Assembly (NCBI GenBank): GCA_039714175.1
Contig: JBDLJV010000001.1
Coordinates: forward strand, 1 to 40,104
Length of the DNA: 40,104 nucleotides
From: Actinomycetota bacterium
GTDB lineage: Bacteria; Actinomycetota; Acidimicrobiia; Spongiisociales; UBA5794
Direction of reading: 5' to 3'
Shown here: piece by piece, positions 17,725 to 35,582 of the stretch
Layout: each line of letters begins with the position of its first letter
Position numbering within the stretch: position 1 is the stretch's first letter
Notes under the pieces: model-generated
What the model was told of the DNA's origin: nothing
What the model saw: the letters and a program-made list of their open reading frames with translations, nothing else
Database searches by the model: none
Program-made: the position numbers and the translations under genes

Positions 17725-18174
17725 CTACTCGCCGATGTCCTCGTTCCACAACTCTGGATTCTCGCTGATGAACTCCTCCATCATCCGGACACACTCGGAG
17801 TCGTCAGCAACGACAACCTCGACACCACGGCTCCGAAGCAGGTCCTCCCCGCCCATGAAGGTCCGATTCTCGCCGATCACGACACGGGGTATCCCGTAGA
17901 GCAGAATCGCACCGGTGCACATGTCGCACGGCGAGAGCGTCGTGTACATCGTGGAACGTTGATACACGGCGGCTGGTTGGCGTCCGGCGATCTCCAGGGC
18001 ATCCGTCTCTCCATGCCGGATCGGAGACCCGAGTTGGATTCTGCGATTGCGACCTGCGCCAAGTGATTCGCCATCTGCAGCAAGCACAGCGCCAATGGGG
18101 ATGCCCCCTTCGGACAAGCCGATCTTCGCCTGCTCAATCGCCATCGCCAGAAAGCGGGCATCATCTTCGGTCAT
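17725..18174 (-). CDS. Cytosine deaminase, Fcy1/CDA-fold (cytidine/deoxycytidylate deaminase zinc-binding family)
   Basis: 149 aa. Zinc motifs HGE and PCDMC. End-to-end resemblance to yeast-type cytosine deaminase (...VVIGENRTFMGGEDLLRSRGVEVVV...). Its start overlaps the stop of the ABC permease gene. Confidence 0.75.
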   Translation of the reverse strand: MTEDDARFLAMAIEQAKIGLSEGGIPIGAVLAADGESLGAGRNRRIQLGSPIRHGETDALEIAGRQPAAVYQRSTMYTTLSPCDMCTGAILLYGIPRVVIGENRTFMGGEDLLRSRGVEVVVADDSECVRMMEEFISENPELWNEDIGE

Positions 18175-20167: not shown

Positions 20168-20168
20168 G

Positions 20169-21689: not shown

Positions 21690-21698
21690 TCGTCGAGA

Positions 21699-22736: not shown

Positions 22737-22850
22737 CGGCTCCTCCTCATGATCGGGATGGCTACGCGTCGCGGCGTTCTTCATCCACCCCGTTCCCGGC
22801 ATCGTACAAGAATCGGTGTGGCGATATCTATCAAAACCGACCGGGTTACG

Positions 22851-23170: not shown

Positions 23171-24406
23171 CTACTCGACGTCCGGAGCCATTGCGAATTC
23201 GTCCTCTTCTGCCGGTTCCGGCAGAATCAGATTGACGATCACGCCAACGACGGCGGCAAGTGCGAGACCCGAGATCGGCACATCACCGATGGCAAGGGTA
23301 TTGGTAAGACCGCTGACACCAAGACCGAACACGAGGATCAGTCCAACAACGATCATGTTGCGACTCTTCATGAAGTCGACCTGTGCGTTCACCAGTGTCC
23401 TCAAACCGACCGCTGCGATCATTCCGAAGAGAACGATCGACAGTCCGCCAAGTACTGGAACCGGTGTGGTCCTCAGGATGGCGGCCAGTTTCGGAATCAG
23501 GGCAAGCACGATTGCGAAACCCGCACCGATTCGGAGGATGAGCGGGTCGTACACCTTCGTGACGGCCAGCACGCCCGTGTTCTCCGAATACGTCGTGTTC
23601 GGTGGGCCACCGATCAGACCGGCGAACAGCGTCGCGATACCGTCGCCGAGGAGCGTTCGCTCCAGGCCGGGCTCCTCGAAGAAGTCCTTTCCGACAACAC
23701 TGCCGTTGGCCATGATGTCACCGACATGCTCGATCATGGTCACGAACGCGATCGGTGCGATGAGAGCAACCGGTGCCCATGAGATGTCTCCAAAGCCCCA
23801 TGTGAACTCGGGAAGACCGACCCACGCTGCCTCACCGACAGCAGCGAAGCTGAAGTCAGGGAAGAAGATTGCTCCGAGGATGTAGCCGACGACCGCTGCA
23901 GTGAGGATCGGCAGCATCCGGAACAAGCCTTTGAAGAACACCGCCGCAATGACCGCGGTCAGCATCGTGACGAGCGCCAACCACCAGGCACCCTCTGACA
24001 TATTGATGGCGATCGGCGCCAGCGTGATTCCGATGACGATGATGACCGGTCCGGTCACGATCGGCGGGAAAACTCGCTGGATCACTTCGTGACCGACTGC
24101 CGCCACAAGGAGGCTCATCGCGGTGTAGAGGACACCGGCGGCCATGATCCCGAGTCCGATTGCTGCCCACGTGTAGTCACGTTCGGTGGCGAGGATGATC
24201 GCTGGGATGAACGCAAATGACGAACCCAGGAATACCGGCACCATCCGCTTGGTCACAAGGTGGAACAGCAACGTACCAACTCCGGCGGCAAGCAATGCCA
24301 CCGACGGATTGAGTCCTGTCAACAACGGCACAAGGACCGTTGCTCCGAACATGGCCACGACGTGCTGCAAGCCCAGCACCGTCTTCTTTTGCATCGTCAT
24401 TTCCAT
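23171..24406 (-). CDS. NCS2-family uracil/xanthine permease (UraA/PyrP-like)
   Basis: 411 aa from MEMTMQKK, with SD GGAGAGG 8 nt upstream. N-terminal LGLQHVVAMFGATVLVPLLTG is the canonical NCS2 motif. Confidence 0.88.
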   Translation of the reverse strand: MEMTMQKKTVLGLQHVVAMFGATVLVPLLTGLNPSVALLAAGVGTLLFHLVTKRMVPVFLGSSFAFIPAIILATERDYTWAAIGLGIMAAGVLYTAMSLLVAAVGHEVIQRVFPPIVTGPVIIVIGITLAPIAINMSEGAWWLALVTMLTAVIAAVFFKGLFRMLPILTAAVVGYILGAIFFPDFSFAAVGEAAWVGLPEFTWGFGDISWAPVALIAPIAFVTMIEHVGDIMANGSVVGKDFFEEPGLERTLLGDGIATLFAGLIGGPPNTTYSENTGVLAVTKVYDPLILRIGAGFAIVLALIPKLAAILRTTPVPVLGGLSIVLFGMIAAVGLRTLVNAQVDFMKSRNMIVVGLILVFGLGVSGLTNTLAIGDVPISGLALAAVVGVIVNLILPEPAEEDEFAMAPDVE

Positions 24407-24623
24407 AGGGTTTTCCTCTCCCAATCGCGAAGAGAGCCACCCCAATCGAGGTGACTCCCTTTCCTATATGTCGAGCTTGTTGCCCGTACCTGACCCGTAC
24501 CGCTTCCGGTGGCGAAAACTGTCGCGGGCTTGTCATTGATTGATGGTGCAGCAAATAAGCAGCCACCCCCCCTTGTTGCGCTGCCCAGTCTTCGCTGGCT
24601 GCCATCAAGGTATGACAATTAGA

Positions 24624-24971
24624 TCATGCTCCTCTGAACACCATCCCGTAGTAGTTGTCGTACGTCTCTTCACGCACGATCTCGACGCTTCCTTTCACGG
24701 CCATGCCGGCCTTCGGTTCGTCGATGTCGAGTTGCCCCAACATCCGCATCCCGTTCTCCAGCTCGACAATACCAAGTCCGAGCGTCGGAACCTCGTACTG
24801 CGGCGGCAGGTTGTAGACCCGTGTGTAGGTCAACAGCTTGCCGTCCCGCGGAAGCGGAACCGTGTCGAACTCGAAGAAGTCGTTCTGCTTGCAGTTCTTG
24901 CACACCATCCGGAACGGGTAGTGCTCCGTGTCGCACAGGCGGCACTTGTAGGCGTAGATTTCCCGAGCCAT
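24624..24971 (-). CDS. DUF35 OB-fold / zinc-ribbon protein (thiolase-partner family)
   Basis: 115 aa. Cys4 ribbon CRLCDTEHYPFRMVCKNCK followed by an OB-fold-like C-terminus. Its start overlaps the thiolase-like stop (TGATG). Confidence 0.8.
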   Translation of the reverse strand: MAREIYAYKCRLCDTEHYPFRMVCKNCKQNDFFEFDTVPLPRDGKLLTYTRVYNLPPQYEVPTLGLGIVELENGMRMLGQLDIDEPKAGMAVKGSVEIVREETYDNYYGMVFRGA

Positions 24972-26146
24972 CAGGCCTCCTTCTCGAACACGAGACAAAC
25001 AACGTTGTTACCGAAGCCGCCGAAGTTGCAAGTGAATCCAACCTCTGCGTCCTCGACCTGGCGAGCTTCGCCGTCTCCACGCAGCTGGGTCACGATCTCC
25101 CATGCCTGCGCGATACCGGTCGCTCCGACCGGGTGACCGCGGCCCTTGAGACCTCCACCGACATTGATGGGGATCTTGCCACCGAGCGCTGTCTCGCCCT
25201 TCTCGAGAGCGATGTGTCCTTCGCCCTTGGGGAAGAACCCGACCTCTTCGCTCTCGACGATCTCGAGGATCGTGAACGCATCGTGGAGCTCGGCAACGTC
25301 GACGTCTTCTGGCGTCTTGCCCGCCATTGCGAACGCATCGGCTGCAGCCTTGCGAACCGCGAGAAGATCCGTCGGTTCCTCGCGTTCATGAACGGTATGG
25401 GTGTCAGTTGCCTGACCAACGCCGCTCAACTTGATCATCGGTCCACCGAGCTCCTTCGCCTTCTCTTCAGAAACGAGAATGATGGCTGCGCCACCGTCGG
25501 AGACCGGACAAGCATCGAAGAACCGCAGTGGCTCTGCGACGTACGGGTTGTTGGTCATCGCCTCAGGGGAATCAAGGATGCCCTCGAGGGATATCTCTTG
25601 CTGGAGATGTGCCCATTCGTTGTTGAGCGCAGCGTTCTGGTTCTTGACTCCAACCATCGCAAGGTGACGCTCGGTAACCCCGTACTTGTCCATGTAGAGA
25701 CGGGTGAACATCGCAGCGTGCGCCGGAAGTGTCACTCCGTAGATGTACTCGGCGATCGGATGGGTCAGCGTCGCGACGAAATCGGTCGCTTCGAGGCCGT
25801 TGACCTCGCGCATCCGCTCCACACCGGCCACAAGAACGACATCGTCCATTCCGGAAGCAACGGCCTGGTACCCAGCCTTGATCGCAGAGCCGCCAGAAGC
25901 CGGTCCATTCTCGATGGCCGCGGCACCAGCGGGAGTGAGGCTCAGGCTGTCCGCGACGGCACTCGCGAGTGCCGTCTGGTGATTGACCCTGGGGCTTCCC
26001 ATGTTGGCCACATAGACCTGGTCAACCTCTGTAATCCCTGCATCCTTGAGCGCCATCATTGACGCATAGGACGCGATCTCGGACAGCGCGAATTCCAACC
26101 GGGTGAAGGTCGTGATGCCAATACCGGCTACGTAGACGTCACGCAT
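24971..26146 (-). CDS. Thiolase-fold protein (SCP-x/archaeal type) apparently lacking the nucleophilic Cys
   Basis: 391 aa from MRDVYVAGIG. C-terminal thiolase motifs are present (ELHDAFT, GRGHPVGATG, CNFGGFG). The expected [E]xxCASGG nucleophile site reads ENGPASGG, and there is no Cys in the first ~230 aa. Confidence 0.8.
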   Translation of the reverse strand: MRDVYVAGIGITTFTRLEFALSEIASYASMMALKDAGITEVDQVYVANMGSPRVNHQTALASAVADSLSLTPAGAAAIENGPASGGSAIKAGYQAVASGMDDVVLVAGVERMREVNGLEATDFVATLTHPIAEYIYGVTLPAHAAMFTRLYMDKYGVTERHLAMVGVKNQNAALNNEWAHLQQEISLEGILDSPEAMTNNPYVAEPLRFFDACPVSDGGAAIILVSEEKAKELGGPMIKLSGVGQATDTHTVHEREEPTDLLAVRKAAADAFAMAGKTPEDVDVAELHDAFTILEIVESEEVGFFPKGEGHIALEKGETALGGKIPINVGGGLKGRGHPVGATGIAQAWEIVTQLRGDGEARQVEDAEVGFTCNFGGFGNNVVCLVFEKEA

Positions 26147-26897
26147 CCTGCAACCCCTCCTCCATCGCCCAACGCTGCACCATGAGAGCGGATGCGGTCG
26201 GGTCATACTGCGAGCGGGTCGCGGATAGCGGGTCAAGGGCAGGCGTCGGCGGATCCGACGGCGGAAGGATCGCTTCCATGGCCTTGTCGAGAATCTCCGG
26301 TGGAACCGGTCTCCGACCAACGACGAGGCTGGACCTCGCGGCGTCGAACAGCTCACGAGTCAACGCCCATGAGGGGACACCGCCGAGCTCGTGGGGAATC
26401 TCGAATCGCTTCTCGAGTTTGTACTCGATCATCCACCGGCGGAATCCGATCGGTGACTCGGCGACAATCAGGACCTCGTCATGACCGAGCACATCGAAGT
26501 GGTACTCCATCTTCGCCGCGAAGGCATGAGCGCCGATGCGCAGGCCGCGGCGCAGGGCCAGGGTGTGCAACGACAAGCCCAGGTTCGGAGTCACCTGGCG
26601 ACCATTGACAATGGCTGCCAGCTCTCCATCGACCTGCACGGCAAGGACGTACTGGTCCTGGAAACGGTACTGATAGTGAGACAGCAGCTCCGCGTAGACA
26701 CGCGATGCGACGACGTCGTAGTAGTCACGCTCCACGTGTAGCAGCGGCTCGACGTGCTTCAGCAGATCCGGGATCTCATCCCGGTCGACGGCACGAACCA
26801 CGGCTGCCTCACCGCTGGCGAGCAGCATGTACTTCGGTTCGTACGGCGCCATCTCCGAATCGATGGGCCGAAGAATCTTTTCTAGATCAACGGACAT
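26139..26897 (-). CDS. Hypothetical protein, operon-embedded (weak GNAT-like segment)
   Basis: 252 aa with coding-like composition. Starts 2 nt after the CoxL-like stop and has an 8-nt overlap with the thiolase-like start. Only a weak LRRGLRIGAHAF motif-A-like stretch; no family recognised. Confidence 0.65.
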   Translation of the reverse strand: MSVDLEKILRPIDSEMAPYEPKYMLLASGEAAVVRAVDRDEIPDLLKHVEPLLHVERDYYDVVASRVYAELLSHYQYRFQDQYVLAVQVDGELAAIVNGRQVTPNLGLSLHTLALRRGLRIGAHAFAAKMEYHFDVLGHDEVLIVAESPIGFRRWMIEYKLEKRFEIPHELGGVPSWALTRELFDAARSSLVVGRRPVPPEILDKAMEAILPPSDPPTPALDPLSATRSQYDPTASALMVQRWAMEEGLQDA

Positions 26898-26899: not shown

Positions 26900-29296
26900 T
26901 CAGTTCGCTCCTTCTGTTGTCTTGGATTTCTCAAGGATCGCCATCGCGACCTTCTCCTGTGTGATCGGCATCGACTTGATGCGGACCCCTAGTGCGTTGT
27001 AAACGGCGTTGGCAATCACCGGTGCAGCTCCGATCATCGTGTGCTCACCCACGCCCCTGGCTCCGAACGGGCCATCGGGCTGTGGCACCTCGACGATGAT
27101 CGGGATGATCTCGTCGGGGATGTCGAAGGCCGTCGGGATCTTGTAGTCGGTGAACGTCGGGTTCATCATCTTCCCGTTCTCGTCGAAGCGCATGTCTTCG
27201 TACAGAACGGTTGCAAGACCCTGGACGAGGCCGCCGGTGATCTGACCGTTCACGAGGTCCGGGTTGATGGCCCGGCCGGCGTCGACGGCCAGCGCTGCCT
27301 TGCGCACCCAGATACGACCTGTGTCCGTGTCGATCTCAAGAACAACACCAGTTGCCCCAACCGTGTAATGCACGTTGGGATGGCCTCCCTGGCCGGTCTC
27401 CGGATCGCTGATCGCGTTCGTGAACTCGGGCATGAACTTGCCGCTGGCAATGATTGGCCCACCGCGCCAGGTTCCTTCCTCGGTCTGGATGCCGTCGATG
27501 ACGAATTCACGCAACGGCTTCGAGAAACTGGCATCGGTTCGACACTTGACTGCTTCGTCCTCGAGGTACAACGAATCATCCTCGAAGCCGTACACCTCGT
27601 GAATGACGTCGAAGATCTTGCCTCTCGCCTCGATGGCTGCCTTCTCGACCGCCAGTCCCGAACTCCATGTGACGTGGCTGGCAACGGTCTGCCATTCGTA
27701 GGGGTTCCGGTCGGTGTCCGGTGTCTCCACCCGGATCTTGTTCACGGGGACGGTGAGGATCTCGCTCGCGATCTGCGCCATGACGGTGAGGTATCCCTGA
27801 CCGAGCTCCATGCCGGACACGGTGATGTTGATGCTGCCGTCCTCGTTGAACTTGAGGAACGAGGCCGATGAGGCGTTCGGCGGCATCGCCGGCGCCTTCC
27901 AGAACAGGGCAAGACCCTTGCCGATCACGGTGTTCGGGTTGTCGGAGGTTTCCTCGACACCCCAGTCGATGGCCGCAGCGGTCTTGTCGATCGCCTCGAT
28001 CATGCCGGACGGATTCATGTGAGCTCCATAGGCGAGCTCGTCACCCTCAACGATCGCGTTCTTGCGTCGGAAATCGACCGGGTCCATCCCGATTGCCTCG
28101 GCGATTCGATCCATGTGTGACTCAAGCCCGAAATGGAATTCGGAGTACCCGAAGCCACGGTACGGACCACCCGGGGGGAGATTCGTGTAGATGCACAGCG
28201 AGTCATTGGTGATGTTGGGCACACGGTACGGGCCGGTGGCCGACAGGCCAGCGGCGTTGACGACGTTGGCGCCGTACTCGACATATGCCCCGGCATCCCA
28301 GTAGAGCTTGTGCTCAACGGCCGTTAGTGTGCCGTCGTTCATGACACCGACCTTGAGCTCGGCGACGACGCCCTGGCGCTGATAGGTGTTGTAGAACTCC
28401 TGCTCCCTGGTCCAGCGCAGCTTGACCGGCCGGCCCTTCACGAGCGTCGCCATGGCAGCACCGAGGATCTCCATGGAGACACCGGCTTTCCCGCCGAATC
28501 CACCGCCGACGTACGGCGTGATCACGCGAACGTCCTTGTGGGTGAAGCCCAGAGGTGCGAGCGCTTCGGCAAACAGGTGGCGCTGCGTATGCGGTGATTG
28601 GGATGCAGTCCAGACCGTGAGCCGATCTGACTGATCGAGTCGGCTGACCGTCACGTGCGGTTCGATGGCGCAGTGCGCGTAGCGCGGCACGTGGTAGGTG
28701 TCTTCGAGCACGTAGTCGGCCTCGGCGAAGGCCTTCTCAGTGTCGCCCTTCCGGATCTTCCTCCAGTGGGCGATGTTCGTGTCGTCCTGTGGGAAGAACC
28801 AGGGGACATGGACATACTCATCGAGGTCGGGATGGACCAGTTCGGCACCGTCGGCGACTGCACTCCTCGGGTCGAGAAGCGGCTCCAGGACCTCGTACTC
28901 GACCTCAATGAGCTTGGCTGCGTGCACAGCGTCGCGATGGCTCCTCGCGATGACACCAGCCACTTGCTCGCCCACGAAACGGACGTGGTTCTGAGCGAAG
29001 ATGTAGCGATCCTCCATGTACATGCCGAACTTGTATGGGAAGTCCGCGCCGGTGGCAACCCGCACAACGCCCGCTGCCGCCTCGGCCTTGGACGTGTCGA
29101 TGGAGACGATCTTCGCGTAGGCGTGAGGGCTCTCGACGATGGCAGCGTGCAGCAACCCGGGCCCAAAATCGATATCGTCGACGAATTGCGCGGCACCGCT
29201 GATCTTGTCGAGACCGTCGATCCTGACGGCCGGCTTGCCGACTGTCTTGAGATCGTCGGTGCTCTTTTCGACCTCGAAGGGATACTCGGTCGTCAT
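26900..29296 (-). CDS. XDH/aldehyde-oxidase-family molybdopterin-binding large subunit (CoxL-like); candidate uracil/thymine dehydrogenase
   Basis: 798 aa from MTTEYPF. VGGGFGGK motif and GVGE catalytic-Glu context (ARGVGEHTMIGAAPVIANAVYNALG). ATGA overlap with the FeS subunit gene. The substrate assignment is inference from context. Confidence 0.88.
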   Translation of the reverse strand: MTTEYPFEVEKSTDDLKTVGKPAVRIDGLDKISGAAQFVDDIDFGPGLLHAAIVESPHAYAKIVSIDTSKAEAAAGVVRVATGADFPYKFGMYMEDRYIFAQNHVRFVGEQVAGVIARSHRDAVHAAKLIEVEYEVLEPLLDPRSAVADGAELVHPDLDEYVHVPWFFPQDDTNIAHWRKIRKGDTEKAFAEADYVLEDTYHVPRYAHCAIEPHVTVSRLDQSDRLTVWTASQSPHTQRHLFAEALAPLGFTHKDVRVITPYVGGGFGGKAGVSMEILGAAMATLVKGRPVKLRWTREQEFYNTYQRQGVVAELKVGVMNDGTLTAVEHKLYWDAGAYVEYGANVVNAAGLSATGPYRVPNITNDSLCIYTNLPPGGPYRGFGYSEFHFGLESHMDRIAEAIGMDPVDFRRKNAIVEGDELAYGAHMNPSGMIEAIDKTAAAIDWGVEETSDNPNTVIGKGLALFWKAPAMPPNASSASFLKFNEDGSINITVSGMELGQGYLTVMAQIASEILTVPVNKIRVETPDTDRNPYEWQTVASHVTWSSGLAVEKAAIEARGKIFDVIHEVYGFEDDSLYLEDEAVKCRTDASFSKPLREFVIDGIQTEEGTWRGGPIIASGKFMPEFTNAISDPETGQGGHPNVHYTVGATGVVLEIDTDTGRIWVRKAALAVDAGRAINPDLVNGQITGGLVQGLATVLYEDMRFDENGKMMNPTFTDYKIPTAFDIPDEIIPIIVEVPQPDGPFGARGVGEHTMIGAAPVIANAVYNALGVRIKSMPITQEKVAMAILEKSKTTEGAN

Positions 29297-29760
29297 TCGG
29301 AACCCTCCTTGCCAGCCGCAAGCACGGCATCGATGATCGGCTCGTACCCGGTGCAGCGGCAGAGATTGCCTGCAAGCGCTTCCTGTACGTCGTGGCGAGT
29401 CGGATCGGGGTTGTTCTCCAGCAACTCGGTGGCAGACAGGACGATGCCCGGGGCACAGAACCCGCATTGGAACGAGTTGTTCTCGATGAACAGGTTCTGG
29501 AGTTCGCTGAGGCCCTCGTAGCTGATGCCTTCCACCGTGGTCACCTCGCGACCATCAGCTTCCACGGCGAGCACGAGACAACTGCGCACGGAGCGGCCGT
29601 CGAGGACGACAGTGCACGAACCACAGTCGCCACGCTCGCACCCGATCTTCGGACTCTTCGTTCCGATCCGCTCCCTGAGCACGTCGAGCAACGTGTCCGC
29701 CGGGGCAACGTCGAGGCCCCAGTCTTCACCATTGACTTTGATGTTGAGATTCATCGTCAT
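29293..29760 (-). CDS. (2Fe-2S)-binding small subunit of XDH-family dehydrogenase (CoxS-like)
   Basis: About 155 aa. Plant-type cluster CERGDCGSCTV and a second cluster QCGFCAPG...CRCTGY. Start is 29760 or 29754. Confidence 0.9.
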   Translation of the reverse strand: MTMNLNIKVNGEDWGLDVAPADTLLDVLRERIGTKSPKIGCERGDCGSCTVVLDGRSVRSCLVLAVEADGREVTTVEGISYEGLSELQNLFIENNSFQCGFCAPGIVLSATELLENNPDPTRHDVQEALAGNLCRCTGYEPIIDAVLAAGKEGSE

Positions 29761-29764
29761 CCTC

Positions 29765-30649
29765 TCAGACAAGCCGTGTGCCGTAGTCGGGACCCTTGCC
29801 GGCAAGTCTCTCGGTCGCTGCTACCAATCCGCGCCCCAGCATCACTTCGGTCATGTGGTTGCGATACTCCGCTGACGCTCGCATATCGGTGATCGGACTG
29901 ATCTCGTCACGGACCATCGCTACAGCCTCGGCGATGAGGTCACCGTCGAGCGACTTGCCTCGGAGAGTGTCCTCGATGCGAGCGGAACGGATCGGTGTGG
30001 GGGCGACGGCACCGAAAGCAATGCGGTACTCGTTGTCCGGGTAGGCAAGTATGCCCACCGAAGCCTGGGCCAGGTCTTCGCCTCCGTAGCGCATGAGCTT
30101 GACATAGACCCCGCCGTGTGAGCCGAGGTCGATGGTGAGATGCGAAACGATCTCGTCCTCCGACAAAGCGGTCTCGCGCAGGCCCACGAACCAGTCCTTG
30201 ATATCGACGCTGCGGGCACCGTCGGGTCCGATGAGATGCACCACTGTGTCATAGACGAGCAGCACAGGTCCGGCATCACATGAAGGGACTGCCGAGCAGA
30301 TGTTGCCGACCACAGTTGCCCGGTTCCTGATTCCACCGGAGGCCACAGTGTCGGCCATCTCTGCCAGAAGCGGGGCATGTTCGTTGACGATCTCGGATTC
30401 GATGATGTCGGTGAACGTCACCAGTGAACCGATGTGAAGGGTGTCACCATCCATCGTGAGATCGTTGAGCCCCGGCACATTCTTGATATCGACAACAAGA
30501 TCCGGGGCGATGGCATCGTCGCGCATCCACGCCACGAGATCGGTGCCACCAGCAAGGATCTGCGCGGAACCGGTGTGGTCCGAGAGGATCCCGATGGCCT
30601 CCTCCAGCGTGTCGGGACGCTGATACTCGAAGTTACGGGCGATCACCAT
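29765..30649 (-). CDS. FAD-binding medium subunit of XDH-family dehydrogenase (CoxM-like)
   Basis: 294 aa. N-terminal FEYQRP...ILAGGTDL FAD-binding PCMH motif. SD GGAGG upstream. Confidence 0.9.
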   Translation of the reverse strand: MVIARNFEYQRPDTLEEAIGILSDHTGSAQILAGGTDLVAWMRDDAIAPDLVVDIKNVPGLNDLTMDGDTLHIGSLVTFTDIIESEIVNEHAPLLAEMADTVASGGIRNRATVVGNICSAVPSCDAGPVLLVYDTVVHLIGPDGARSVDIKDWFVGLRETALSEDEIVSHLTIDLGSHGGVYVKLMRYGGEDLAQASVGILAYPDNEYRIAFGAVAPTPIRSARIEDTLRGKSLDGDLIAEAVAMVRDEISPITDMRASAEYRNHMTEVMLGRGLVAATERLAGKGPDYGTRLV

Positions 30650-30746: not shown

Positions 30747-32153
30747 TCATTGCAGCGTCTCCGCCAGCGCATTGACTCCATCCACGAAACACTCCATGGG
30801 TGCCTCGACCAGACCCGCGCCGACCATGCCGGTGCCCGGGACCTTGCCGGCAACACCGGTGTTGATCTGCGGCCGAACGCCGGCCCGCACGACCCTTGTG
30901 GCATCGATACCAACCGGTGTCCCACGGAACTCGAGCATCGGGATCTGATAGGCCGGGTGCTCGGCCATCGTGATCTCGTACATTGCGAGCGTCCTGGTCA
31001 CGGCTCCAGCGGCCGTTCCACCGACGAACCCCACAATTGCGGGTGCTGCAGCCATTGCGAGGCCTCCAAGACCAACCGTCTCGGTGATCGTCGAGTCTCC
31101 TATGTCCGGACTGGCGTCATCTTCGGTGAAGGATCCGAGGTAGAGACCGTCAACCGGCGGGGCAGGGGCGATGAACCAGCGATCCCCCGTTCCGGAGAGC
31201 CGGACTCCGAAGTCGGTACCGTTGCGGGCCATCACCGTGACGAGGCTCGACCCGGCCACTCCGGACGCGGCATCGGATCCAAGCTTGCCAGAGGCCATGA
31301 CAAGGTTGAGCATGAAGTGGTCGTTGCCATCGATGAAGTCGTACACGGCCCGGCGTTGGCCGAGCGGTGCGTCGGCTCCATCGATGAGTGCTCCGCTGAT
31401 CTCGCGAAGGAAGAGCGATGTCACCGCTCGGTTTCGGTTGTGTCCGTCATCGCCCATCTGAAGCGCCTGGGCGATCAACGACTGGAGATCTATCGGTCCG
31501 GTGCTCTTGAGGGTGGCTGCGAGCACCGGACCGAGAACCTCATCCATCCAATGGAGCCGATCGATAGCTTCGGGAGCGAAGGCGCCATATCGAAGCACCT
31601 TCCCGAGTCCTTCGTTCAATGTTGAGTAGGACACGCCGTCTCCGGCGGCGTCCTTGACGACCGCAATCGGCATCGACGGCGATGTCACCCCAGCCATCGG
31701 GCCGACGGCGCCGTGATGGTGGCAAGGGGATAGGTCGATGAGGCCGTCTGCGGCCTTCGCCGCGGCGTCGTCGGGATCATCTGCAAGTCCCTCGTAGAGC
31801 ATCGCCCCGATGATCGCTCCCCTCATCGGGCCGCTTGCCCGTTCCCACGTCAATGGCGGACCGGCGTGGAGGAAGGTCCGCTCCGTCATTGAGGGGAACA
31901 CGTCACGGGCCACGCTGACATCAACGAGCTGTGGCCGCACGGCCAGCATGCGCTTGATCGCGACCTCGTTCGCATCCCGCATTCGGTCATCTGCGAACAA
32001 GATTGCGAGAGCGTCTTCGCTTCCGGCGGCTGGTGGACGCCAGTCGGCTCGCTCGACAGCGGAGCCCTGTTGCTCGATCGACGTGGCAAGCATGTCGGTA
32101 CCTGCGGTCGCGACCACCGGTTCCGTGTCGAGCAGTTGTCCGAGATCGCTCAT
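30747..32153 (-). CDS. DUF1116 protein (YlbE/AllG-like)
   Basis: 468 aa from MSDLGQ. ATGA overlap with the FdrA-like stop. SPCHHHGAVGPMAG segment and its position next to FdrA and DUF2877 match the ylbE family. Confidence 0.75.
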   Translation of the reverse strand: MSDLGQLLDTEPVVATAGTDMLATSIEQQGSAVERADWRPPAAGSEDALAILFADDRMRDANEVAIKRMLAVRPQLVDVSVARDVFPSMTERTFLHAGPPLTWERASGPMRGAIIGAMLYEGLADDPDDAAAKAADGLIDLSPCHHHGAVGPMAGVTSPSMPIAVVKDAAGDGVSYSTLNEGLGKVLRYGAFAPEAIDRLHWMDEVLGPVLAATLKSTGPIDLQSLIAQALQMGDDGHNRNRAVTSLFLREISGALIDGADAPLGQRRAVYDFIDGNDHFMLNLVMASGKLGSDAASGVAGSSLVTVMARNGTDFGVRLSGTGDRWFIAPAPPVDGLYLGSFTEDDASPDIGDSTITETVGLGGLAMAAAPAIVGFVGGTAAGAVTRTLAMYEITMAEHPAYQIPMLEFRGTPVGIDATRVVRAGVRPQINTGVAGKVPGTGMVGAGLVEAPMECFVDGVNALAETLQ

Positions 32154-33580
32154 GATGAAGTCCTTGTCGTTGCCAGGCGTGCTGCGTACAAGGCAGCCTC
32201 CGCGTTGGACAGGTGCACAGATGCACCAGCGTCGTTGAGGGCCTTTGCCTGGGTGTCGCGTCCCTGCGGATCTCCGCTCGTCCCACACAGTGAAACGACG
32301 ACGGCCACTCCGGAGTCGACAACGCGCTCGACGATGGGGGCGAGTTCGGCAGCCGGATTGGCATTGGCGCCATAGCCGAGGACAACGTCCATGAGGACCA
32401 CGCCGACCGATTCGTCGTGGGCGACGGCTGCGAGTCGCTCGACCCGCACGGTCTGGTCGATCATCGGATGGGCTCTTCCCTGCGTGTATTCATCATCGCC
32501 GTAGTCGATGAAGGTGTGTCCCTCGTCTTCCTCGCGGGTTCCGATCTCGCCGAGCTGCGGACCAGCCACATGACGCGCTTCGGAACGCAGCGTGCCGCCG
32601 GAGAACAGTCCACGGACGAATCCGGAACGGTGCTCCTGTTGGGGGGCTTCCCATGAACCGTACGTCGGCCTGGCCTGACCGAGAGCATCCAGCACCTCGC
32701 CTGCGCCTTCCTCGAGCGTGGTCTCCCCCATGAATGTGATCACGACAGGTGTGGCGCACTCTGCGGCGACGCGGCGCACCTGGTCTGCAACCGGTGCGGC
32801 CGGAGGCTTCGAGATGACAACAATCAGCTCGGTTCCCGGATCAGCGTCGAGCGCTTCGAGTGCTTGGAGCGTCGAGATGGCCCCAACGTCTTCGGAGAGA
32901 TCATGGCTTCCCGTGCCGAGCGCATGTCGAACACCAACGCCGGCGTCATCGAGCAACGCGCACATCTCCTGTATGCCGGTACCTGATGCGCCCACCATGC
33001 TCACCGGACCTGGCTGCACTGCATTGGCAAATCCGAGACCGATGCCGCTCACGATCGTCGTGCCGCAATCGGGGCCCATCACGAGGAGATTGTGTTGCGC
33101 GCCGTATCGCTTGAGTGCGACTTCCTGGGAAATGGGGACGTTGTCGCTGAAGATCATCACATGGAGACCATCCTGGAGTGCCTCCATGGCTTCGACATAG
33201 GCGTGCTCCCCGGGAACCGACAGCAGAGCGACGTTGGCGCCGTTGATCTCGGCTGCAGTGCCCACAGTCTTCGCATCGGGTGCGTTCATCCCGCCCGAGC
33301 GGACCATCTTCGGGGTGAGCGCTTCTTCGAGAACCGCATGCGCATGAGCGATTGCCTCTTCGTTCTCGGCATGGACAGCGAGCAGCAGGTCGTTGGGTCC
33401 AACGCCGACGACAGAATCCATGTCGAAGTCCATGTCGGCAAGCAGGCTGAGATTGAGCTCAGTGGCCATCGCCACCAGAGCGTCGGTGACGCCTTCAACA
33501 CCTTGGAGTGCCTTGCTTGCTTGCATCAGCCGAACCGAATCGTGATAGCGGCCGGGGTGTACCTCAACTCGCGAGATCAT
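32150..33580 (-). CDS. FdrA-family protein (AllF-like; succinyl-CoA-synthetase-alpha/CoA-ligase fold)
   Basis: 476 aa. N-terminus MISRVEVHPGRYHDSVRLMQASK parallels the E. coli FdrA N-terminus. Rossmann/CoA-binding-like repeats. ATGA overlap with the DUF2877 stop. Confidence 0.8.
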   Translation of the reverse strand: MISRVEVHPGRYHDSVRLMQASKALQGVEGVTDALVAMATELNLSLLADMDFDMDSVVGVGPNDLLLAVHAENEEAIAHAHAVLEEALTPKMVRSGGMNAPDAKTVGTAAEINGANVALLSVPGEHAYVEAMEALQDGLHVMIFSDNVPISQEVALKRYGAQHNLLVMGPDCGTTIVSGIGLGFANAVQPGPVSMVGASGTGIQEMCALLDDAGVGVRHALGTGSHDLSEDVGAISTLQALEALDADPGTELIVVISKPPAAPVADQVRRVAAECATPVVITFMGETTLEEGAGEVLDALGQARPTYGSWEAPQQEHRSGFVRGLFSGGTLRSEARHVAGPQLGEIGTREEDEGHTFIDYGDDEYTQGRAHPMIDQTVRVERLAAVAHDESVGVVLMDVVLGYGANANPAAELAPIVERVVDSGVAVVVSLCGTSGDPQGRDTQAKALNDAGASVHLSNAEAALYAARLATTRTSS

Positions 33581-34425
33581 CGTGCGCCTCCAGTGAGAGA
33601 TGAAACAGATCGACCACCGAGGACGATCCCTGCGGCGAGCGCAGGTCCCGAGCTGTGTCCGACGGCAAGTAGATCGCGATGGCTGGCCCGGATGTCTCCG
33701 CGCCCGGCAACAGCTCGGAGGAACGCCGCGGCGGGGAGTGCCACGTTCCCCTTCAGGGCGTGGTCGATCAGGGCGGCCGAGAACGTGGTGGTTCGCTGTC
33801 GTGCCAGCGACGAGATTTCGAGAGAGGTCGCATCGAGCGTCTGCATAAGTCGACGATCTCCGACCGCTTCGCCGAACAACCGCAGGGCAGAGAGAACTCC
33901 GGCCAGGTAATCGTCACCTTCGGGTGTCAGACCTTCACCTCTGCCAATGAGCATCGATGCAGCCGCAACAAGACCGGCTGGTGAGTCTGTGGCCGGGATG
34001 GCGTCGAGTGGCATGCCATCCACGGTTGATGGCAGGTCGACGATCGACTCGGCAATCCGGGCTCGATCGAGAGTCGGTAACGCTGGTCGGGGATCCCACC
34101 ACCGGACGGCGTCGATCGTCAGCCCGTCGAGCATGACCTGACCGATTCCGACGGTGGCCGGTGAGCCATGCTCGATCGAACCGAAGACATTGGCCTCGGC
34201 GTCGGCGGCCACCTCAACACTGTTCGGAAGCCGGGTCGCATCCCGGGTCGATACGACGACGACACCACCGCCGTCCAGGAGGAGCCAGACGGCGTGGCTC
34301 GCCGATCCCACCACCGTTGCCGATGCGTGTGAATCAGACAGCTCAGAGCGGAGCGCGGCACTCGCCACCCCCGGCATCCGAACGGATACCGGGGACGATC
34401 GAGTTTCGACCGCTCTGACGGTCAT
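33577..34425 (-). CDS. DUF2877 protein (YlbF/AllH-like)
   Basis: 282 aa. Family-typical GLTPEGDDYLAG and VGHSSGPALAAG motifs. Starts 6 nt after the amidohydrolase stop. Confidence 0.75.
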   Translation of the reverse strand: MTVRAVETRSSPVSVRMPGVASAALRSELSDSHASATVVGSASHAVWLLLDGGGVVVVSTRDATRLPNSVEVAADAEANVFGSIEHGSPATVGIGQVMLDGLTIDAVRWWDPRPALPTLDRARIAESIVDLPSTVDGMPLDAIPATDSPAGLVAAASMLIGRGEGLTPEGDDYLAGVLSALRLFGEAVGDRRLMQTLDATSLEISSLARQRTTTFSAALIDHALKGNVALPAAAFLRAVAGRGDIRASHRDLLAVGHSSGPALAAGIVLGGRSVSSLTGGAR

Positions 34426-34431: not shown

Positions 34432-35529
34432 CTATCCGAGATCGACGATCGCGGCAACCGGACCGCCACCGCTCGGGCCTTGGTGGATTGCTGCAACAGA
34501 CACGAACACAGCGGCATCGTCGATCGCGTTGGCTACGACGCCACCCACGGCGGCTTTGATGTGGCGATGGTGGTGCACGTCGGAATCGTCCAGGGCGACC
34601 TGCCGGCGGCCCCTCAGGCGTGAGGTCGGATCAGCTTCGCACTTGACGAAGACGTTCACGACCTTGCCATCGAGATCATCGGAGTTCGCCCGATCCGGAA
34701 GATCGAGACCTGCCGAGCGGATCGCCCGGTATACGCCTTCGCGGTCGAGAGCATCGTTCATCACATCGTGACCGATGCGATACCGGCCACCGGCACCGCG
34801 TACGTTGCCGACGACGACGGTCTGTGCTCGGTCAAGTTCGACACCCGACGAGCAGGACGCTACCGAGGAGAACAGGCTGAGATCGTGACCGATCTGTTCG
34901 GCTGTCGGCATCTCGATCTCGCCGAGGGCTACGGCGATGCCGAGCCCGGATGTGCCGTTCGAGATGTTCATCGACTCGAGCGGATCCTCGGTGTAGACGG
35001 TGTGACCGCGTTCCTTGGCATCGTTGATCGTATCCATGACGAGCAGCGGGGTCTTCGTCTGCACGTAGTGGACGTCAGCGGCATCTTCGATGCCTGCGGC
35101 TGCCATTGCGCGGCGGACTCCTTCGGCGACCTTGGCGACCATCGCCGGCCGTCCGATGTCCTCCGGCAGAATGACGTCGCTCATCGCGTAGCCAACAGCC
35201 AGGCGGGGTTCGTCGGATACAGGGCCGTCATCGGGAACGTTGGCAAAGACGGTGGCGTGCGGACACAGAATGCCGTCCGTGCCACCCGACCACACCATGG
35301 GAATGTCGTCAACCTCGGACTGCGGTCTCGTCCCCTTCTCCATCAGAACCTTGCGGAATGCCTGATCCGCGATGATCCTGGTGAAGTCGTTGACACCACC
35401 GTTGCCTTCGGTCTTGCCAACTACGGCGACAACGCCATCGGCGTCGAAGACTCCCTCGTCGATCAGTGCTGCGAGCCCGGATGCATCTCCGACGCTCTCA
35501 AGTACGACCTTGCGTACGTCAACGGCCAT
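34432..35529 (-). CDS. Ring-opening amidohydrolase, AtzD/TrzD/barbiturase family (barbiturase favoured by context)
   Basis: 365 aa from MAVDVRK, with SD GGAGG 7 nt upstream. Family motifs [58 protein letters not shown] and HQGPSGGGP. Confidence 0.88.
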
Positions 35530-35582
35530 GGTCCTGCCTCCTACTGTCCGGATGGAATCGAGAATATCCCAATCGAACCTCG
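35530..35582. promoter_or_regulatory. 53-bp divergent control region (amidohydrolase operon / pucR-like gene) carrying CCCAATCGA and GGAATCGA motifs
   Basis: CCCAATCGA at 35568-35576 and AATCGA at 35556-35561. The same 9-mer recurs in the uracil permease 5' UTR (24441-24449; variant at 24420-24428). Confidence 0.4.

What the first reader, a model, noticed from the sequence alone, without database searches (positions are those of the whole stretch)
26900..30649. Three-subunit Mo/FAD/FeS dehydrogenase as a gene candidate for uracil/thymine dehydrogenase
Seen in sequence: CoxM-like (AGGTDL), CoxS-like (two 2Fe-2S Cys clusters) and CoxL-like (GGGFGGK, GVGE) subunits of about 31, 17 and 86 kDa lie inside the barbiturase operon.

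Established knowledge: XDH-family enzymes hydroxylate N-heterocycles at carbon. Uracil/thymine dehydrogenase performs exactly this kind of C6 hydroxylation to give barbiturate. To my knowledge its gene assignment is poorly established.

Inference: genomic linkage to barbiturase, a uracil permease and a cytosine deaminase makes uracil/thymine the most economical substrate guess. No XdhC or MocA-type maturation genes are present in the window.
Basis: partly seen in the sequence, partly recalled or inferred. Interest (0 to 1): 0.68.

Follow-up and report, generated by a model that had tools for sequence, protein, structure and literature searches.

The report
Probable uracil-oxidising molybdenum enzyme genes
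Three adjacent genes encode a molybdenum/flavin/iron-sulfur enzyme that most likely oxidises uracil to barbiturate, the first step of a bacterial pathway for breaking down pyrimidines; the prediction is well supported but untested, and genes for this activity were already reported from another bacterium in 2024.

Summary
Window 26900-30649 (minus strand) encodes a complete xanthine-dehydrogenase-family trio: FAD subunit 31.4 kDa, 2x[2Fe-2S] subunit 16.5 kDa, Mo subunit 87.0 kDa. It lies in a tightly packed co-directional array: barbiturase, AllH/F/G-like, coxM-S-L, p252, thiolase-like, DUF35-like, UraA-type permease.

The uracil/thymine dehydrogenase reading is well supported by context but unproven:
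- The neighbour carries the full barbiturase specificity signature.
- The permease carries the UraA-type motif.
- The Mo subunit keeps the catalytic Glu but lacks the purine-binding Glu802/Arg880.
- Its clade (groups A and B, shared GGKAG / KAPAMP / GVGEH pocket) is linked to barbiturase, AllFGH homologues or UraA-type permeases in Acidimicrobiia, Nocardioides sp. JS614 (coxL overlaps the barbiturase-family gene by 4 nt), Jatrophihabitans, Dormibacteraeota and Spirochaetota.

Two corrections:
- Gene identification for uracil-thymine dehydrogenase was published in 2024 (Soong et al., J Biosci Bioeng). I saw only the title.
- In Rhodococcus, where the activity was characterised, the barbiturase-linked trio belongs to a different branch (form-II-CoxL-like, 28% identity).

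So this is probably a second lineage with a known activity. The "cytosine deaminase" is only a generic deaminase. The AllFGH homologues suggest phosphorolytic cleavage of ureidomalonate.

The parts
29765..30649 (-). coxM-like FAD-binding medium subunit (294 aa, 31.4 kDa, AGGTDL)
   Evidence: Pfam FAD_binding_5 7.8e-46 and CO_deh_flav_C 8e-20. No NCBIfam equivalog cutoff is reached. Size.
29293..29760 (-). coxS-like small subunit with two [2Fe-2S] sites (155 aa, 16.5 kDa)
   Evidence: Pfam Fer2_2 1.3e-28 and Fer2. Eight Cys at 41, 46, 49, 61, 99, 102, 134, 136. The start lies 4 nt after the coxM stop.
26900..29296 (-). coxL-like molybdopterin-binding large subunit (798 aa, 87.0 kDa). Pocket: GGGFGGK-A-G, NVVNAAGLS, YRGFGYSEF, FWKAPAMPPN, GVGEH
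   Evidence: Pfam Ald_Xan_dh_C, MoCoBD_1 and MoCoBD_2. Best NCBIfam hit XdhA_XDHase, 508 bits against a cutoff of 780. Best PDB hit 4-hydroxybenzoyl-CoA reductase alpha, 330 bits. Pocket mapping onto bovine XOR numbering.
34432..35529 (-). barbiturase (AtzD/Bar family), first gene of the array
   Evidence: 525 bits against PDB 5HWE barbiturase, 317 bits for the best cyanuric acid hydrolase. 68% identity to the R. erythropolis enzyme. Bar signature N194/H324/K328/V348/A349 all present.
33577..34425 (-). AllH-like (DUF2877) subunit
   Evidence: Pfam AllH 6.9e-22. 32% identity to E. coli YlbF/AllH over the C-terminal 113 aa.
32150..33580 (-). AllF/FdrA-like subunit
   Evidence: NCBIfam FdrA 405 bits against a cutoff of 433; Pfam Ligase_CoA and CoA_binding. 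39% identity to E. coli FdrA.
30747..32153 (-). AllG-like (DUF1116) subunit
   Evidence: Pfam AllG 1.3e-88. 44% identity to E. coli YlbE/AllG.
26139..26897 (-). p252, conserved protein of unknown family directly after coxL
   Evidence: No Pfam or NCBIfam hit. Conserved next to coxL or barbiturase in group A and B loci, including Spirochaetota. Only a weak profile hit to a GNAT domain, E=0.01.
24971..26146 (-). thiolase-like protein (391 aa)
   Evidence: Pfam Thiolase_N and Thiolase_C_1; NCBIfam 'thiolase domain-containing protein' 391 bits against a cutoff of 420. Conserved in group A and Spirochaetota loci.
24624..24998 (-). DUF35/OB_ChsH2-like small protein, the usual partner of such thiolases (start uncertain)
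   Evidence: Weak BbsA hit, 1.7e-09. Orthologues in L084 and L085 carry PF01796 OB_ChsH2_C.
23171..24445 (-). NCS2 permease of the UraA (uracil) type
   Evidence: NCBIfam uracil permease 327 bits, RutG 276, xanthine permease 216. 38% identity to E. coli UraA; the counterparts of EHVG and of the ENxG signature are conserved, window TTYSENTGVLAVTKV.
35466..37184 (+). divergently transcribed candidate regulator, homologous to the PucR-type regulators of the Rhodococcus locus (start uncertain)
   Evidence: Only weak NCBIfam hits to transcriptional-activator models (PmfR, Rv1453). Same BLAST family as the PucR/HTH_30 regulator next to barbiturase in the Rhodococcus locus L081.

Best explanation
The trio is a heterotrimeric (probably dimer-of-trimers) molybdenum hydroxylase that oxidises uracil, and probably thymine, at C6 to barbiturate (5-methylbarbiturate). 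That is EC 1.17.99.4 activity.

Inferred mechanism, by analogy with the family:
- Uracil enters through the UraA-type permease.
- In the large subunit, the Mo-OH group, deprotonated by the conserved Glu of GVGEH, attacks the electron-poor C6 next to N1.
- Hydride passes to Mo=S.
- Electrons run through the two [2Fe-2S] clusters of the small subunit to FAD in the medium subunit, and on to an unknown acceptor.

Barbiturase, encoded by the first gene of the array, then opens the ring to ureidomalonate.

Shown here: family membership, cofactor motifs, operon layout, barbiturase identity, conserved linkage and a non-purine pocket. Inferred: substrate, product and electron acceptor.

The enzyme belongs to a discrete subfamily (groups A and B, pocket GGKAG / KAPAMP / GVGEH). 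This subfamily is distinct from the form-II-CoxL-like trio linked to barbiturase in Rhodococcus. It is therefore best seen as a second lineage with the same predicted activity.
For: 1. Complete XDH-family trio with intact cofactor motifs and the catalytic Glu (bovine E1261), plus R912 and F914.

2. Same transcription-unit-like array as a protein with the full barbiturase signature. No biological source of barbiturate other than pyrimidine oxidation is known to me.

3. Seen from the barbiturase side: of 80 barbiturase loci from different species, 23 have an XDH-family large subunit within at most 10 kb. Of these, 12 are the window's type (72-91% identity; one match was fragmented), 5 are group B (43-44% identity to the window) and 6 are group C.

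4. Seen from the CoxL side: I examined 7 group A/B homologues.
- Five have an AtzD-family gene within 10 kb (L084, L085, L087, L088, L090).
- Six have AllF/G homologues within 10 kb (AllH called in five of them).
- Five have a uracil-type permease within 10 kb.
- In Nocardioides sp. JS614, coxL overlaps the AtzD-family gene by 4 nt.

5. The pocket is not a purine pocket: E802 is Ala and R880 is Ala. The motif set GGKAG / KAPAMP / YRGFG / GVGEH is nearly invariant in the 240 group A and B homologues. Among the 150 best 50%-cluster representatives it occurs only in the two closest full-length ones (P0429, P0430) and some fragments.

6. All 18 NCS2 permease matches in group A, B and C loci have Glu at the first position of the ENxG signature; most read TTYAENIGVMAAT[RK]VYS, close to E. 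coli UraA TTYGENIGVMAITRVYS.

7. Rhodococcus qingshengii also has an XDH-family trio plus a permease 4.5 kb downstream of barbiturase. Its barbiturase is 99% identical to that of the strain in which the activity was characterised. A Mo hydroxylase next to barbiturase is thus a recurrent design.
Against: - There is no biochemical evidence for any group A or B member.
- The Rhodococcus trio is only 27.6% identical in the large subunit and sits in another branch (NF040766, closest to quinoline 2-oxidoreductase). Function cannot be transferred by orthology.
- I could not read the 2024 paper, so I do not know which genes it identified.
- Some Acidimicrobiia loci (L007, L008, L010, L011) have barbiturase-AllHFG with no Mo trio in the available flank.
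- Most Streptosporangiales barbiturase loci have no trio within 10 kb.
- Two Spirochaetota group B loci have no AtzD-type barbiturase within 10 kb.
- No XdhC or MocA maturation gene is in the window.
Confidence: 0.65

Rival explanations
1. The trio hydroxylates a related but different N-heterocycle whose breakdown merges with barbiturate or N-acylurea metabolism. Candidates are 2- or 4-hydroxypyrimidine, 5-substituted uracils, isocytosine, or another small diazine. Uracil would then be at best a side substrate.
For: Substrate range in this family is broad and evolves quickly. Two Spirochaetota loci keep the trio, AllFGH, p252, thiolase and permease but carry a PF04199 cyclase-family hydrolase instead of an AtzD barbiturase. 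That could mean a different ring. Some barbiturase-AllFGH loci lack the trio.
Against: The permease is UraA-type in all loci. The partner hydrolase carries the barbiturate-specific signature. Uracil is the only abundant natural precursor of barbiturate (my knowledge).
Confidence: 0.17
2. It is a xanthine/hypoxanthine dehydrogenase. The array is then a purine-derived ureide pathway, with the AllFGH homologues acting on oxalurate as in E. coli.
For: The best NCBIfam hits are XdhA-type xanthine dehydrogenase models (508 and 476 bits). AllFGH is known from allantoin catabolism (PMC11326118).
Against: All XDH equivalog cutoffs are missed by a wide margin. Glu802 and Arg880 are both Ala. The conserved block contains no uricase, allantoinase, allantoicase or ureidoglycolate enzymes. 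The ring-opening enzyme is a barbiturase. The permease has the uracil-type Glu rather than the Gln that, to my knowledge, marks xanthine/urate transporters.
Confidence: 0.05
3. It is not a heterocycle hydroxylase. It would be an aldehyde oxidoreductase, or a reductive dehydroxylase like its closest solved relative, 4-hydroxybenzoyl-CoA reductase, acting on a CoA ester made by the thiolase/FdrA-like proteins.
For: The best PDB hit is 4-hydroxybenzoyl-CoA reductase alpha (330 bits). A thiolase-like protein and a succinyl-CoA-synthetase-like protein are in the array.
Against: The 4-HBCR models score far below cutoff: alpha 479 against 995, beta 119 against 405 and only partial, gamma 151 against 258. 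The medium subunit is a short 294-aa CoxM type with no sign of the extra Fe-S cluster insertion that, from memory, the 4-HBCR beta subunit carries. The oxidative pyrimidine route has no aldehyde intermediate (my knowledge). The trio also occurs with only permease and barbiturase in Nocardioides.
Confidence: 0.04

Closest known systems
Uracil/thymine dehydrogenase, EC 1.17.99.4, of Rhodococcus erythropolis JCM 3132 (Soong et al., J Biosci Bioeng 2024;137:413; seen only as a citation)
   Same: Same predicted reaction (uracil or thymine to barbiturate or 5-methylbarbiturate) and same pathway partner (barbiturase). From my memory of the abstract, which I could not verify, that enzyme is a heteromer of three different subunits that uses artificial acceptors and not NAD(P)+.
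   Different: No activity is shown for the window's enzyme. The published gene identities could not be read. If they are the barbiturase-linked trio of Rhodococcus, the large subunits share only about 28% identity and lie in different branches of the family.
Barbiturase-linked form-II-CoxL-like trio of Rhodococcus, Streptomyces and Geodermatophilus (NCBIfam NF040766 'aerobic CODH group 5')
   Same: Three subunits of the XDH family. Adjacent to a UraA-type permease with a near-identical signature motif and to barbiturase. Also lacks Glu802 and Arg880.
   Different: 27.6% (Rhodococcus) and 28.8% (Streptomyces) large-subunit identity, about 30% in Geodermatophilus. Pocket GVKI.HPWPEE / YRGAGRPQ / YVEGTG instead of GGKAG / YRGFG / KAPAMP. 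Followed by a CoxG-like SRPBCC protein rather than p252. Best PDB match is quinoline 2-oxidoreductase.
Xanthine dehydrogenase/oxidase (bovine XOR; E. coli XdhABC)
   Same: Same domain set, cofactor motifs, catalytic Glu1261, Arg912 and Phe914. 29% identity to E. coli XdhA.
   Different: Glu802 and Arg880 are replaced by Ala. The Phe1009/Thr1010 region is replaced by KAPAMP. The trio falls below all XDH equivalog cutoffs.
4-Hydroxybenzoyl-CoA reductase (PDB 1RM6), the closest solved structure
   Same: Highest sequence score among solved structures (330 bits).
   Different: The scores are far below the family cutoffs. The context is pyrimidine catabolism, not aromatic catabolism.
Oxamate carbamoyltransferase AllFGH of E. 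coli (PMC11326118), for the three genes between barbiturase and the trio
   Same: Three homologous subunits in one operon (39%, 44% and 32% identity). The substrates are N-acylureas that differ by one CH2: oxalurate against ureidomalonate.
   Different: The context is barbiturase, not allantoin genes. No carbamate kinase is in the window, though one is adjacent in related loci. The substrate is untested.

Membership tests
Xanthine dehydrogenase / Mo-hydroxylase family (three-subunit CoxLMS architecture) | Large subunit with a/b-hammerhead domain plus two molybdopterin-binding domains | tested here: met
   PF01315 9.9e-26, PF02738 6.3e-79, PF20256 6.3e-65.
Xanthine dehydrogenase / Mo-hydroxylase family (three-subunit CoxLMS architecture) | Small subunit with two [2Fe-2S] cysteine motifs | tested here: met
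   Fer2 and Fer2_2. Cys41/46/49/61 and Cys99/102/134/136.
Xanthine dehydrogenase / Mo-hydroxylase family (three-subunit CoxLMS architecture) | Medium subunit with FAD-binding domain (AGGTDL) and CO_deh_flav_C | tested here: met
   PF00941 7.8e-46, PF03450 8e-20. AGGTDL is in the translation.
Xanthine dehydrogenase / Mo-hydroxylase family (three-subunit CoxLMS architecture) | Catalytic Glu (bovine E1261) and Mo-site Arg912/Phe914 | tested here: met
   Alignment to a PDB-validated XOR fragment gives E, R and F at these columns.
Xanthine dehydrogenase / Mo-hydroxylase family (three-subunit CoxLMS architecture) | Bound Mo-pterin cofactor with sulfido ligand, FAD, Fe-S | not testable with these tools
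   Needs purified protein. No XdhC or MocA gene is in the window.
Canonical xanthine (purine) dehydrogenase | Purine-binding Glu802 and Arg880 (bovine numbering) | tested here: not met
   Both columns are Ala in the window and in all group A and B sequences.
Canonical xanthine (purine) dehydrogenase | Score above curated equivalog cutoffs | tested here: not met
   XdhA_XDHase 508 against 780; PRK09970 476 against 916; pucD 425 against 784; xdhB 303 against 850.
Uracil/thymine dehydrogenase, EC 1.17.99.4 | Oxidises uracil or thymine to barbiturate or 5-methylbarbiturate with an acceptor other than NAD(P)+ | not testable with these tools
   Enzyme assay required.
Uracil/thymine dehydrogenase, EC 1.17.99.4 | Genomic coupling to barbiturase and uracil uptake | tested here: met
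   Same array as a Bar-signature barbiturase and a UraA-type permease. The coupling is conserved across phyla.
Uracil/thymine dehydrogenase, EC 1.17.99.4 | Orthology to the genes identified in R. erythropolis JCM 3132 (Soong et al. 2024) | tested here: inconclusive
   The paper is not held. The only XDH-family trio in the Rhodococcus barbiturase locus is 27.6% identical and sits in another branch. Databases still name it CO dehydrogenase or xanthine dehydrogenase.
Aerobic CO dehydrogenase (form I CoxL) | Active-site loop AYRCSFR with the Cu-binding Cys | tested here: not met
   The window has PYRGFGYSEF at this loop. TIGR02416 scores 311 against a cutoff of 991.
4-Hydroxybenzoyl-CoA reductase | Scores above the alpha, beta and gamma equivalog cutoffs | tested here: not met
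   Alpha 479 against 995; beta 119 against 405, partial; gamma 151 against 258.
Barbiturase (neighbouring gene, on which the inference rests) | Bar-type specificity signature Asn194, His324, Lys328, Val348, Ser/Ala349 (PMC3758960) | tested here: met
   N, H, K, V, A at the aligned positions. 525 bits against PDB barbiturase, 317 for the best cyanuric acid hydrolase. It also passes the NCBIfam cyanuric acid amidohydrolase (AtzD) equivalog cutoff (452 against 360). That model therefore does not separate the two activities.
AllFGH oxamate carbamoyltransferase (neighbouring genes) | Three co-encoded subunits: FdrA-like, DUF1116/AllG and DUF2877/AllH | tested here: met
   Pfam AllG 1.3e-88, AllH 6.9e-22; FdrA 405 bits. 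39%, 44% and 32% identity to the E. coli proteins.
AllFGH oxamate carbamoyltransferase (neighbouring genes) | Acts on oxalurate/oxamate | not testable with these tools
   The context suggests ureidomalonate instead. This is inference only.

The most novel reading that the evidence does not exclude
The conserved block would encode an undescribed, energy-conserving version of the oxidative pyrimidine pathway.

- A second, independently recruited Mo-hydroxylase lineage (the KAPAMP clade) makes barbiturate.
- Barbiturase opens the ring.
- An AllFGH-type transcarbamylase then cleaves ureidomalonate with phosphate into malonamate and carbamoyl phosphate, instead of a hydrolytic ureidomalonase. ATP would be recovered by carbamate kinase.
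- p252, the thiolase-like protein and the DUF35-like protein would process the C3 remainder.

The block is widespread in uncultured Acidimicrobiia and also occurs in Nocardioides, Jatrophihabitans, Dormibacteraeota and Spirochaetota. If this reading is right, the 'rare' oxidative route would be a common way for environmental bacteria to use pyrimidines.
Probability: 0.35. Interest if true: 0.7.

Novelty: new variant of a known kind. Interest (0 to 1): 0.45.

Why it matters
Uracil/thymine dehydrogenase was, to my knowledge, a sequence-orphan enzyme for about 70 years. Judging from its title, a 2024 paper closed that gap for Rhodococcus. Public annotation has not followed: the Rhodococcus trio is still called CO dehydrogenase or xanthine dehydrogenase, and the window's family is called 'CO/xanthine dehydrogenase Mo-binding subunit'.

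If the window's clade also makes barbiturate, three things follow:
- Two distant branches of the Mo-hydroxylase family would have been recruited for the same step.
- Thousands of mis-named 'CoxL/XDH' genes in environmental Actinomycetota, Dormibacteraeota and Spirochaetota would gain a function.
- The oxidative pyrimidine pathway would be much more widespread than the handful of isolates in which it was described.

The adjacent AllFGH homologues give a directly testable prediction for the unknown fate of ureidomalonate in these organisms.

Tried and rejected
- **ORF calling.** My first caller, greedy by length, picked antisense shadow ORFs in the high-GC loci. A GC1/GC2/GC3-based filter helped but was still noisy. 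I therefore relied on tblastn with defined queries and on the precomputed gene calls of the look-up of encoding contigs.
- **Streptosporangiales barbiturase loci.** I examined them for an alternative oxidase. The neighbours are housekeeping genes (glyS, aroC/K/B) plus CoA-transferase III, a CN-hydrolase and carbamate kinase. That says nothing about the oxidase.
- **Acidimicrobiia loci without the trio (L007, L010).** Their neighbours offered no substitute oxidase.
- **p252.** No Pfam or NCBIfam hit even at E=10. Only a marginal GNAT-domain hit against PDB sequences. The single-sequence AlphaFold model had pLDDT 38 and was not used.
- **p252 and the Rhodococcus 223-aa protein.** I tested whether they are related. 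They are not; the latter is CoxG/SRPBCC-like.
- **Promoter and terminator scan.** Nothing above background of any use.
- **Literature.** Eight full-text searches found no open paper that assigns the gene. The 2024 paper surfaced only as a reference. Soong 2024, Seffernick 2012 and Vogels & van der Drift 1976 are not held.
- **Rejected readings.** Xanthine dehydrogenase, form I CO dehydrogenase and 4-HBCR were rejected on pocket residues and curated cutoffs.

Full report
**Observation**

- coxM (29765-30649): 294 aa, 31.4 kDa, contains AGGTDL. It has FAD_binding_5 and CO_deh_flav_C.
- coxS (29293-29760): 155 aa, 16.5 kDa. It has Fer2 and Fer2_2, with eight cysteines in the two canonical clusters.
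- coxL (26900-29296): the true start is MTTEYPF rather than the longer mechanical ORF. It is 798 aa and 87.0 kDa, and carries the hammerhead domain and both molybdopterin-binding domains, with GGGFGGK and GVGE.

Pfam E-values run from 1e-20 to 1e-79. The genes are translationally coupled: a 4-nt gap at coxM/coxS, an ATGA overlap at coxS/coxL, and 2 nt to the next gene.

**The array**

The trio sits in a co-directional array:
- barbiturase (34432-35529)
- AllH-like (33577-34425)
- AllF/FdrA-like (32150-33580)
- AllG-like (30747-32153)
- coxM, coxS, coxL
- p252, which matches no family (26139-26897)
- thiolase-like (24971-26146)
- DUF35-like (24624-24998)
- NCS2 permease (23171-24445)

A candidate regulator is transcribed divergently (35466-37184); it falls in the same BLAST family as the PucR-type regulator of the Rhodococcus locus. 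The window has no XdhC or MocA gene. The 'cytosine deaminase' is only a generic CDA-fold deaminase that follows a BMP-type ABC transporter. Homologue names point to Acidimicrobiia as the source organism.

**Is the anchor gene a barbiturase?**

The argument depends on this, and the answer is yes.
- The protein scores 525 bits against the solved R. erythropolis barbiturase, against 317 for the best cyanuric acid hydrolase.
- It is 68% identical to the R. erythropolis enzyme.
- It has all five residues proposed to separate barbiturases from cyanuric acid hydrolases: Asn194, His324, Lys328, Val348, Ser/Ala349 (PMC3758960). The window has N, H, K, V, A.
- It also passes the NCBIfam cyanuric acid amidohydrolase (AtzD) equivalog cutoff. 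That model does not discriminate between the two activities.

**Is the permease uracil-type?**

It is 38% identical to E. coli UraA and keeps the counterparts of Glu241 and Glu290. The NAT signature reads ...YSENTGVLAVTK, against UraA ...YGENIGVMAITR. To my knowledge, xanthine/urate members of this transporter family carry Gln at that position.

**Linkage seen from the barbiturase side**

I scanned one genome per species with a barbiturase alignment. At least 573 species carry a relative, and I analysed the best 80 loci with up to 10 kb of flank. tblastn found an XDH-family large subunit in 23 of the 80. They fall into three groups.
- **Group A** (12 loci, Acidimicrobiia and relatives; 72-91% identity to the window in 11, one fragmented match). 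The whole block barb-AllH-AllF-AllG-coxMSL-p252-thiolase is kept in order.
- **Group B** (5 loci: Ca. Dormibacteraeota, an Acidimicrobiaceae MAG, Ca. Nanopelagicales, Nocardioides, an Actinomycetota MAG; 43-44% identity in the four full-length matches). The trio lies with a permease, and in three of the five also a p252 homologue, next to barbiturase.
- **Group C** (6 loci: Geodermatophilus, Goekera, Streptomyces, Streptomonospora and a MAG; about 30% identity).

Many of the other loci are short contigs. The Streptosporangiales loci place barbiturase among housekeeping genes. Five Acidimicrobiia loci (L005, L007, L008, L010, L011) show barbiturase-AllHFG without the trio. In L005 the contig ends just after AllG. 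In L007, L010 and L011 several kb of flank follow AllG with no trio, and in L010 and L007 the neighbours offer no substitute oxidase.

**Linkage seen from the CoxL side**

I examined seven group A and B homologues with the look-up of encoding contigs.
- Two group A homologues at 73-75% identity sit in the same block, in otherwise unrelated flanks.
- Jatrophihabitans: barbiturase, p252-like and permease lie divergent from AllHFG-coxMSL-carbamate kinase.
- A 764-kb contig: coxMSL, then amidase-AllGFH, then permease-p252-barbiturase.
- Nocardioides sp. JS614: coxM-coxS-coxL is followed by the AtzD-family gene with a 4-nt overlap. From memory, the JS614 enzyme is one of the two experimentally confirmed barbiturases; I could not verify this here.
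- Two Spirochaetota (Rectinemataceae) contigs keep AllF-AllG, p252, thiolase, DUF35, permease, AllH and coxMSL. They carry a PF04199 cyclase-family hydrolase and no AtzD gene within 10 kb.

In total, five of the seven have an AtzD-family gene within 10 kb, and six of the seven have AllF/G homologues (AllH called in five of them).

**The active-site pocket**

I validated a recalled XOR fragment against PDB entries, where query position i corresponds to bovine residue i+784. I then aligned it with all the CoxL sequences.

Groups A and B keep the catalytic Glu1261 (GVGEH), Arg912 and Phe914 (YRGFG). Ala replaces both Glu802 (GGGFGGK-A-G) and Arg880. A conserved KAPAMP motif sits where XOR has Phe1009/Thr1010.

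These motifs are almost invariant in 120 group A and 120 group B homologues. I also ran an exhaustive search of 1.84 billion 50%-cluster representatives. Among the 150 best hits, only the two closest full-length ones (46% and 44% identity), plus fragments, share the full motif set. A third has KAPAIP, and everything at or below 42% identity differs.

The trio therefore belongs to a small, sharply delimited subfamily. All curated equivalog cutoffs are missed: XDH, CODH, 4-HBCR, PaoC and glyceraldehyde dehydrogenase. The closest solved structure is 4-hydroxybenzoyl-CoA reductase at 330 bits.

**The Rhodococcus comparison**

R. erythropolis CCM2595 is the same strain as JCM 3132, in which the pathway was characterised (PMC3961730). 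In R. qingshengii the barbiturase is 99% identical to the JCM 3132 enzyme. The locus reads:

XdhC ... PucR, permease, carboxyltransferase, CoA-transferase III, PucR, upp | barbiturase, amidase, aminotransferase, permease, coxM, coxS, coxL, CoxG-like.

A Mo-hydroxylase trio next to barbiturase therefore recurs in the reference organism group. That large subunit, however, is only 27.6% identical to the window's.
- It scores 1401 bits on NF040766 ('aerobic CODH group 5').
- It has the form-II-CoxL loop YRGAGRPQ.
- Its best solved relative is quinoline 2-oxidoreductase.
- In a neighbour-joining tree it lies outside E. coli XdhA relative to groups A and B.

The permeases next to group B and group C trios carry the same signature, TTYAENIGVMAAT[RK]VYS. 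The simplest reading is that two distant branches of the family fill the same slot: permease, then hydroxylase, then barbiturase.

**Prior knowledge**

Eight full-text searches found no open paper that assigns the gene. [quoted passage not shown] The paper is not held, so I know only its title. My memory of its abstract (three different subunits, artificial acceptors, no activity on purines) is unverified.

Databases have not caught up: the Rhodococcus trio is still named CO dehydrogenase or xanthine dehydrogenase.

**Mechanism and pathway**

The best-supported model runs as follows.
- UraA-type uptake brings in uracil.
- The Mo centre hydroxylates C6, with electrons passing through 2x[2Fe-2S] to FAD and on to an unknown acceptor.
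- Barbiturase opens the ring to ureidomalonate.

The three genes between barbiturase and the trio are homologues of E. coli AllFGH (39%, 44% and 32% identity). That enzyme is the oxamate carbamoyltransferase, which splits oxalurate into oxamate and carbamoyl phosphate (PMC11326118). Ureidomalonate is the one-carbon homologue of oxalurate. I infer a phosphorolytic cleavage to malonamate and carbamoyl phosphate, in place of the hydrolytic ureidomalonase. In Rhodococcus, the amidase next to barbiturase is the likely ureidomalonase.

Several observations fit this:
- A carbamate kinase homologue is adjacent to barbiturase in about 50 of the 80 genome loci, and follows coxL in Jatrophihabitans.
- One database protein is a carbamate-kinase-barbiturase fusion.
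- One locus places an amidase, a candidate malonamidase, next to AllG.

The roles of p252, the thiolase-like protein and the DUF35-like protein remain open.

**Verdict**

- The functional guess is the best available explanation (confidence about 0.65). It rests on context and pocket features, not on orthology to a characterised enzyme or on any assay.
- The activity is known, and genes for it were reported in 2024. The novelty is limited to a probable second lineage and a variant pathway layout.
- I rate it a new variant of a known kind, of moderate interest (0.45).

Noticed in passing
window 30747-34425 (minus strand): Three AllH/AllF/AllG homologues lie between barbiturase and the Mo trio (39%, 44% and 32% identity to E. 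coli AllFGH, the oxamate carbamoyltransferase). Ureidomalonate, the product of barbiturase, is the CH2-homologue of oxalurate. This suggests phosphorolysis to malonamate and carbamoyl phosphate rather than hydrolysis.
   Followed up: partly
L018-L080 (for example L064:8947-9936, L019), L087:12430-13368, protein P0219: A carbamate kinase homologue (arcC model 323 bits) lies directly next to barbiturase in about 50 of 80 species loci, mostly ones without AllFGH. One database protein is an AA_kinase-barbiturase fusion. Why barbiturase should be coupled to carbamate kinase where no AllFGH is nearby is unexplained.
   Followed up: partly
window 26139-26897 (minus strand); L084-L089: p252 is a conserved 230-252 aa protein with no Pfam or NCBIfam family. 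It is always next to coxL or barbiturase in group A and B loci, including Spirochaetota (53% identity). The only lead is a marginal GNAT-domain hit (E=0.01). The single-sequence structure model failed (pLDDT 38).
   Followed up: partly
window 24624-26146 (minus strand): A thiolase-like protein and a DUF35/OB_ChsH2-like partner are conserved at the end of the block in group A and Spirochaetota loci. They are absent from the actinobacterial and Dormibacteraeota group B loci and from all group C loci. Their role in a pyrimidine pathway is unclear.
   Followed up: partly
L086:1569-2444 and L089:3821-4693 (Spirochaetota, Rectinemataceae): These loci keep the trio, AllFGH, p252, thiolase and permease. 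They have a PF04199 cyclase-family (formamidase/isatin-hydrolase-like) gene and no AtzD-type barbiturase within 10 kb. This may be a non-homologous replacement of the ring-opening step.
   Followed up: partly
L081:15799-20535 (Rhodococcus qingshengii); also L059, L063, L064, L066, L067, L079: The barbiturase-linked trio of Rhodococcus, Streptomyces and Geodermatophilus is form-II-CoxL-like (YRGAGRPQ). It passes NCBIfam NF040766 'aerobic CO dehydrogenase large subunit' and is named that way in databases. It sits with a uracil-type permease and barbiturase, so it is probably mis-named and is the likeliest identity of the published uracil-thymine dehydrogenase.
   Followed up: partly
L007, L010, L011 (Acidimicrobiia MAGs); L005 and L008 similar but with shorter flanks: A sub-group with barbiturase at 88% identity has only barbiturase-AllH-AllF-AllG. 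There is no Mo trio, p252 or thiolase in the flank. The neighbours are unrelated (APH-like kinase, HypA, ParA-like, hydrolases).
   Followed up: partly
window 17725-22802 (minus strand): Downstream of the permease lies a BMP-family ABC transporter (binding protein, ATPase, two permeases), followed by a 149-aa CDA-fold deaminase. This could be a nucleoside or base uptake and deamination unit that feeds the pathway. No specific family cutoff is reached.
   Followed up: partly
window 35466-37184 (plus strand); L081:7364-9061 and 1027-2670: A regulator is transcribed divergently from barbiturase. It falls in the same BLAST family as one of the two PucR/HTH_30 regulators of the Rhodococcus barbiturase locus, which hints at a shared regulatory logic despite the different hydroxylases. 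Pfam was not run on the window protein.
   Followed up: no
L086:12475-13116: An NTP_transf_3 (MocA-like cytidylyltransferase) gene directly follows group B coxL in one Spirochaetota locus. This hints that the clade uses the cytosine-dinucleotide form of the molybdenum cofactor.
   Followed up: no
L082:4346-6604 (E. coli xdhA): In my alignment, E. coli XdhA also lacks the canonical Glu802 and Arg880 (Gln and Ala at those columns), although it is annotated as a putative xanthine dehydrogenase.
   Followed up: no
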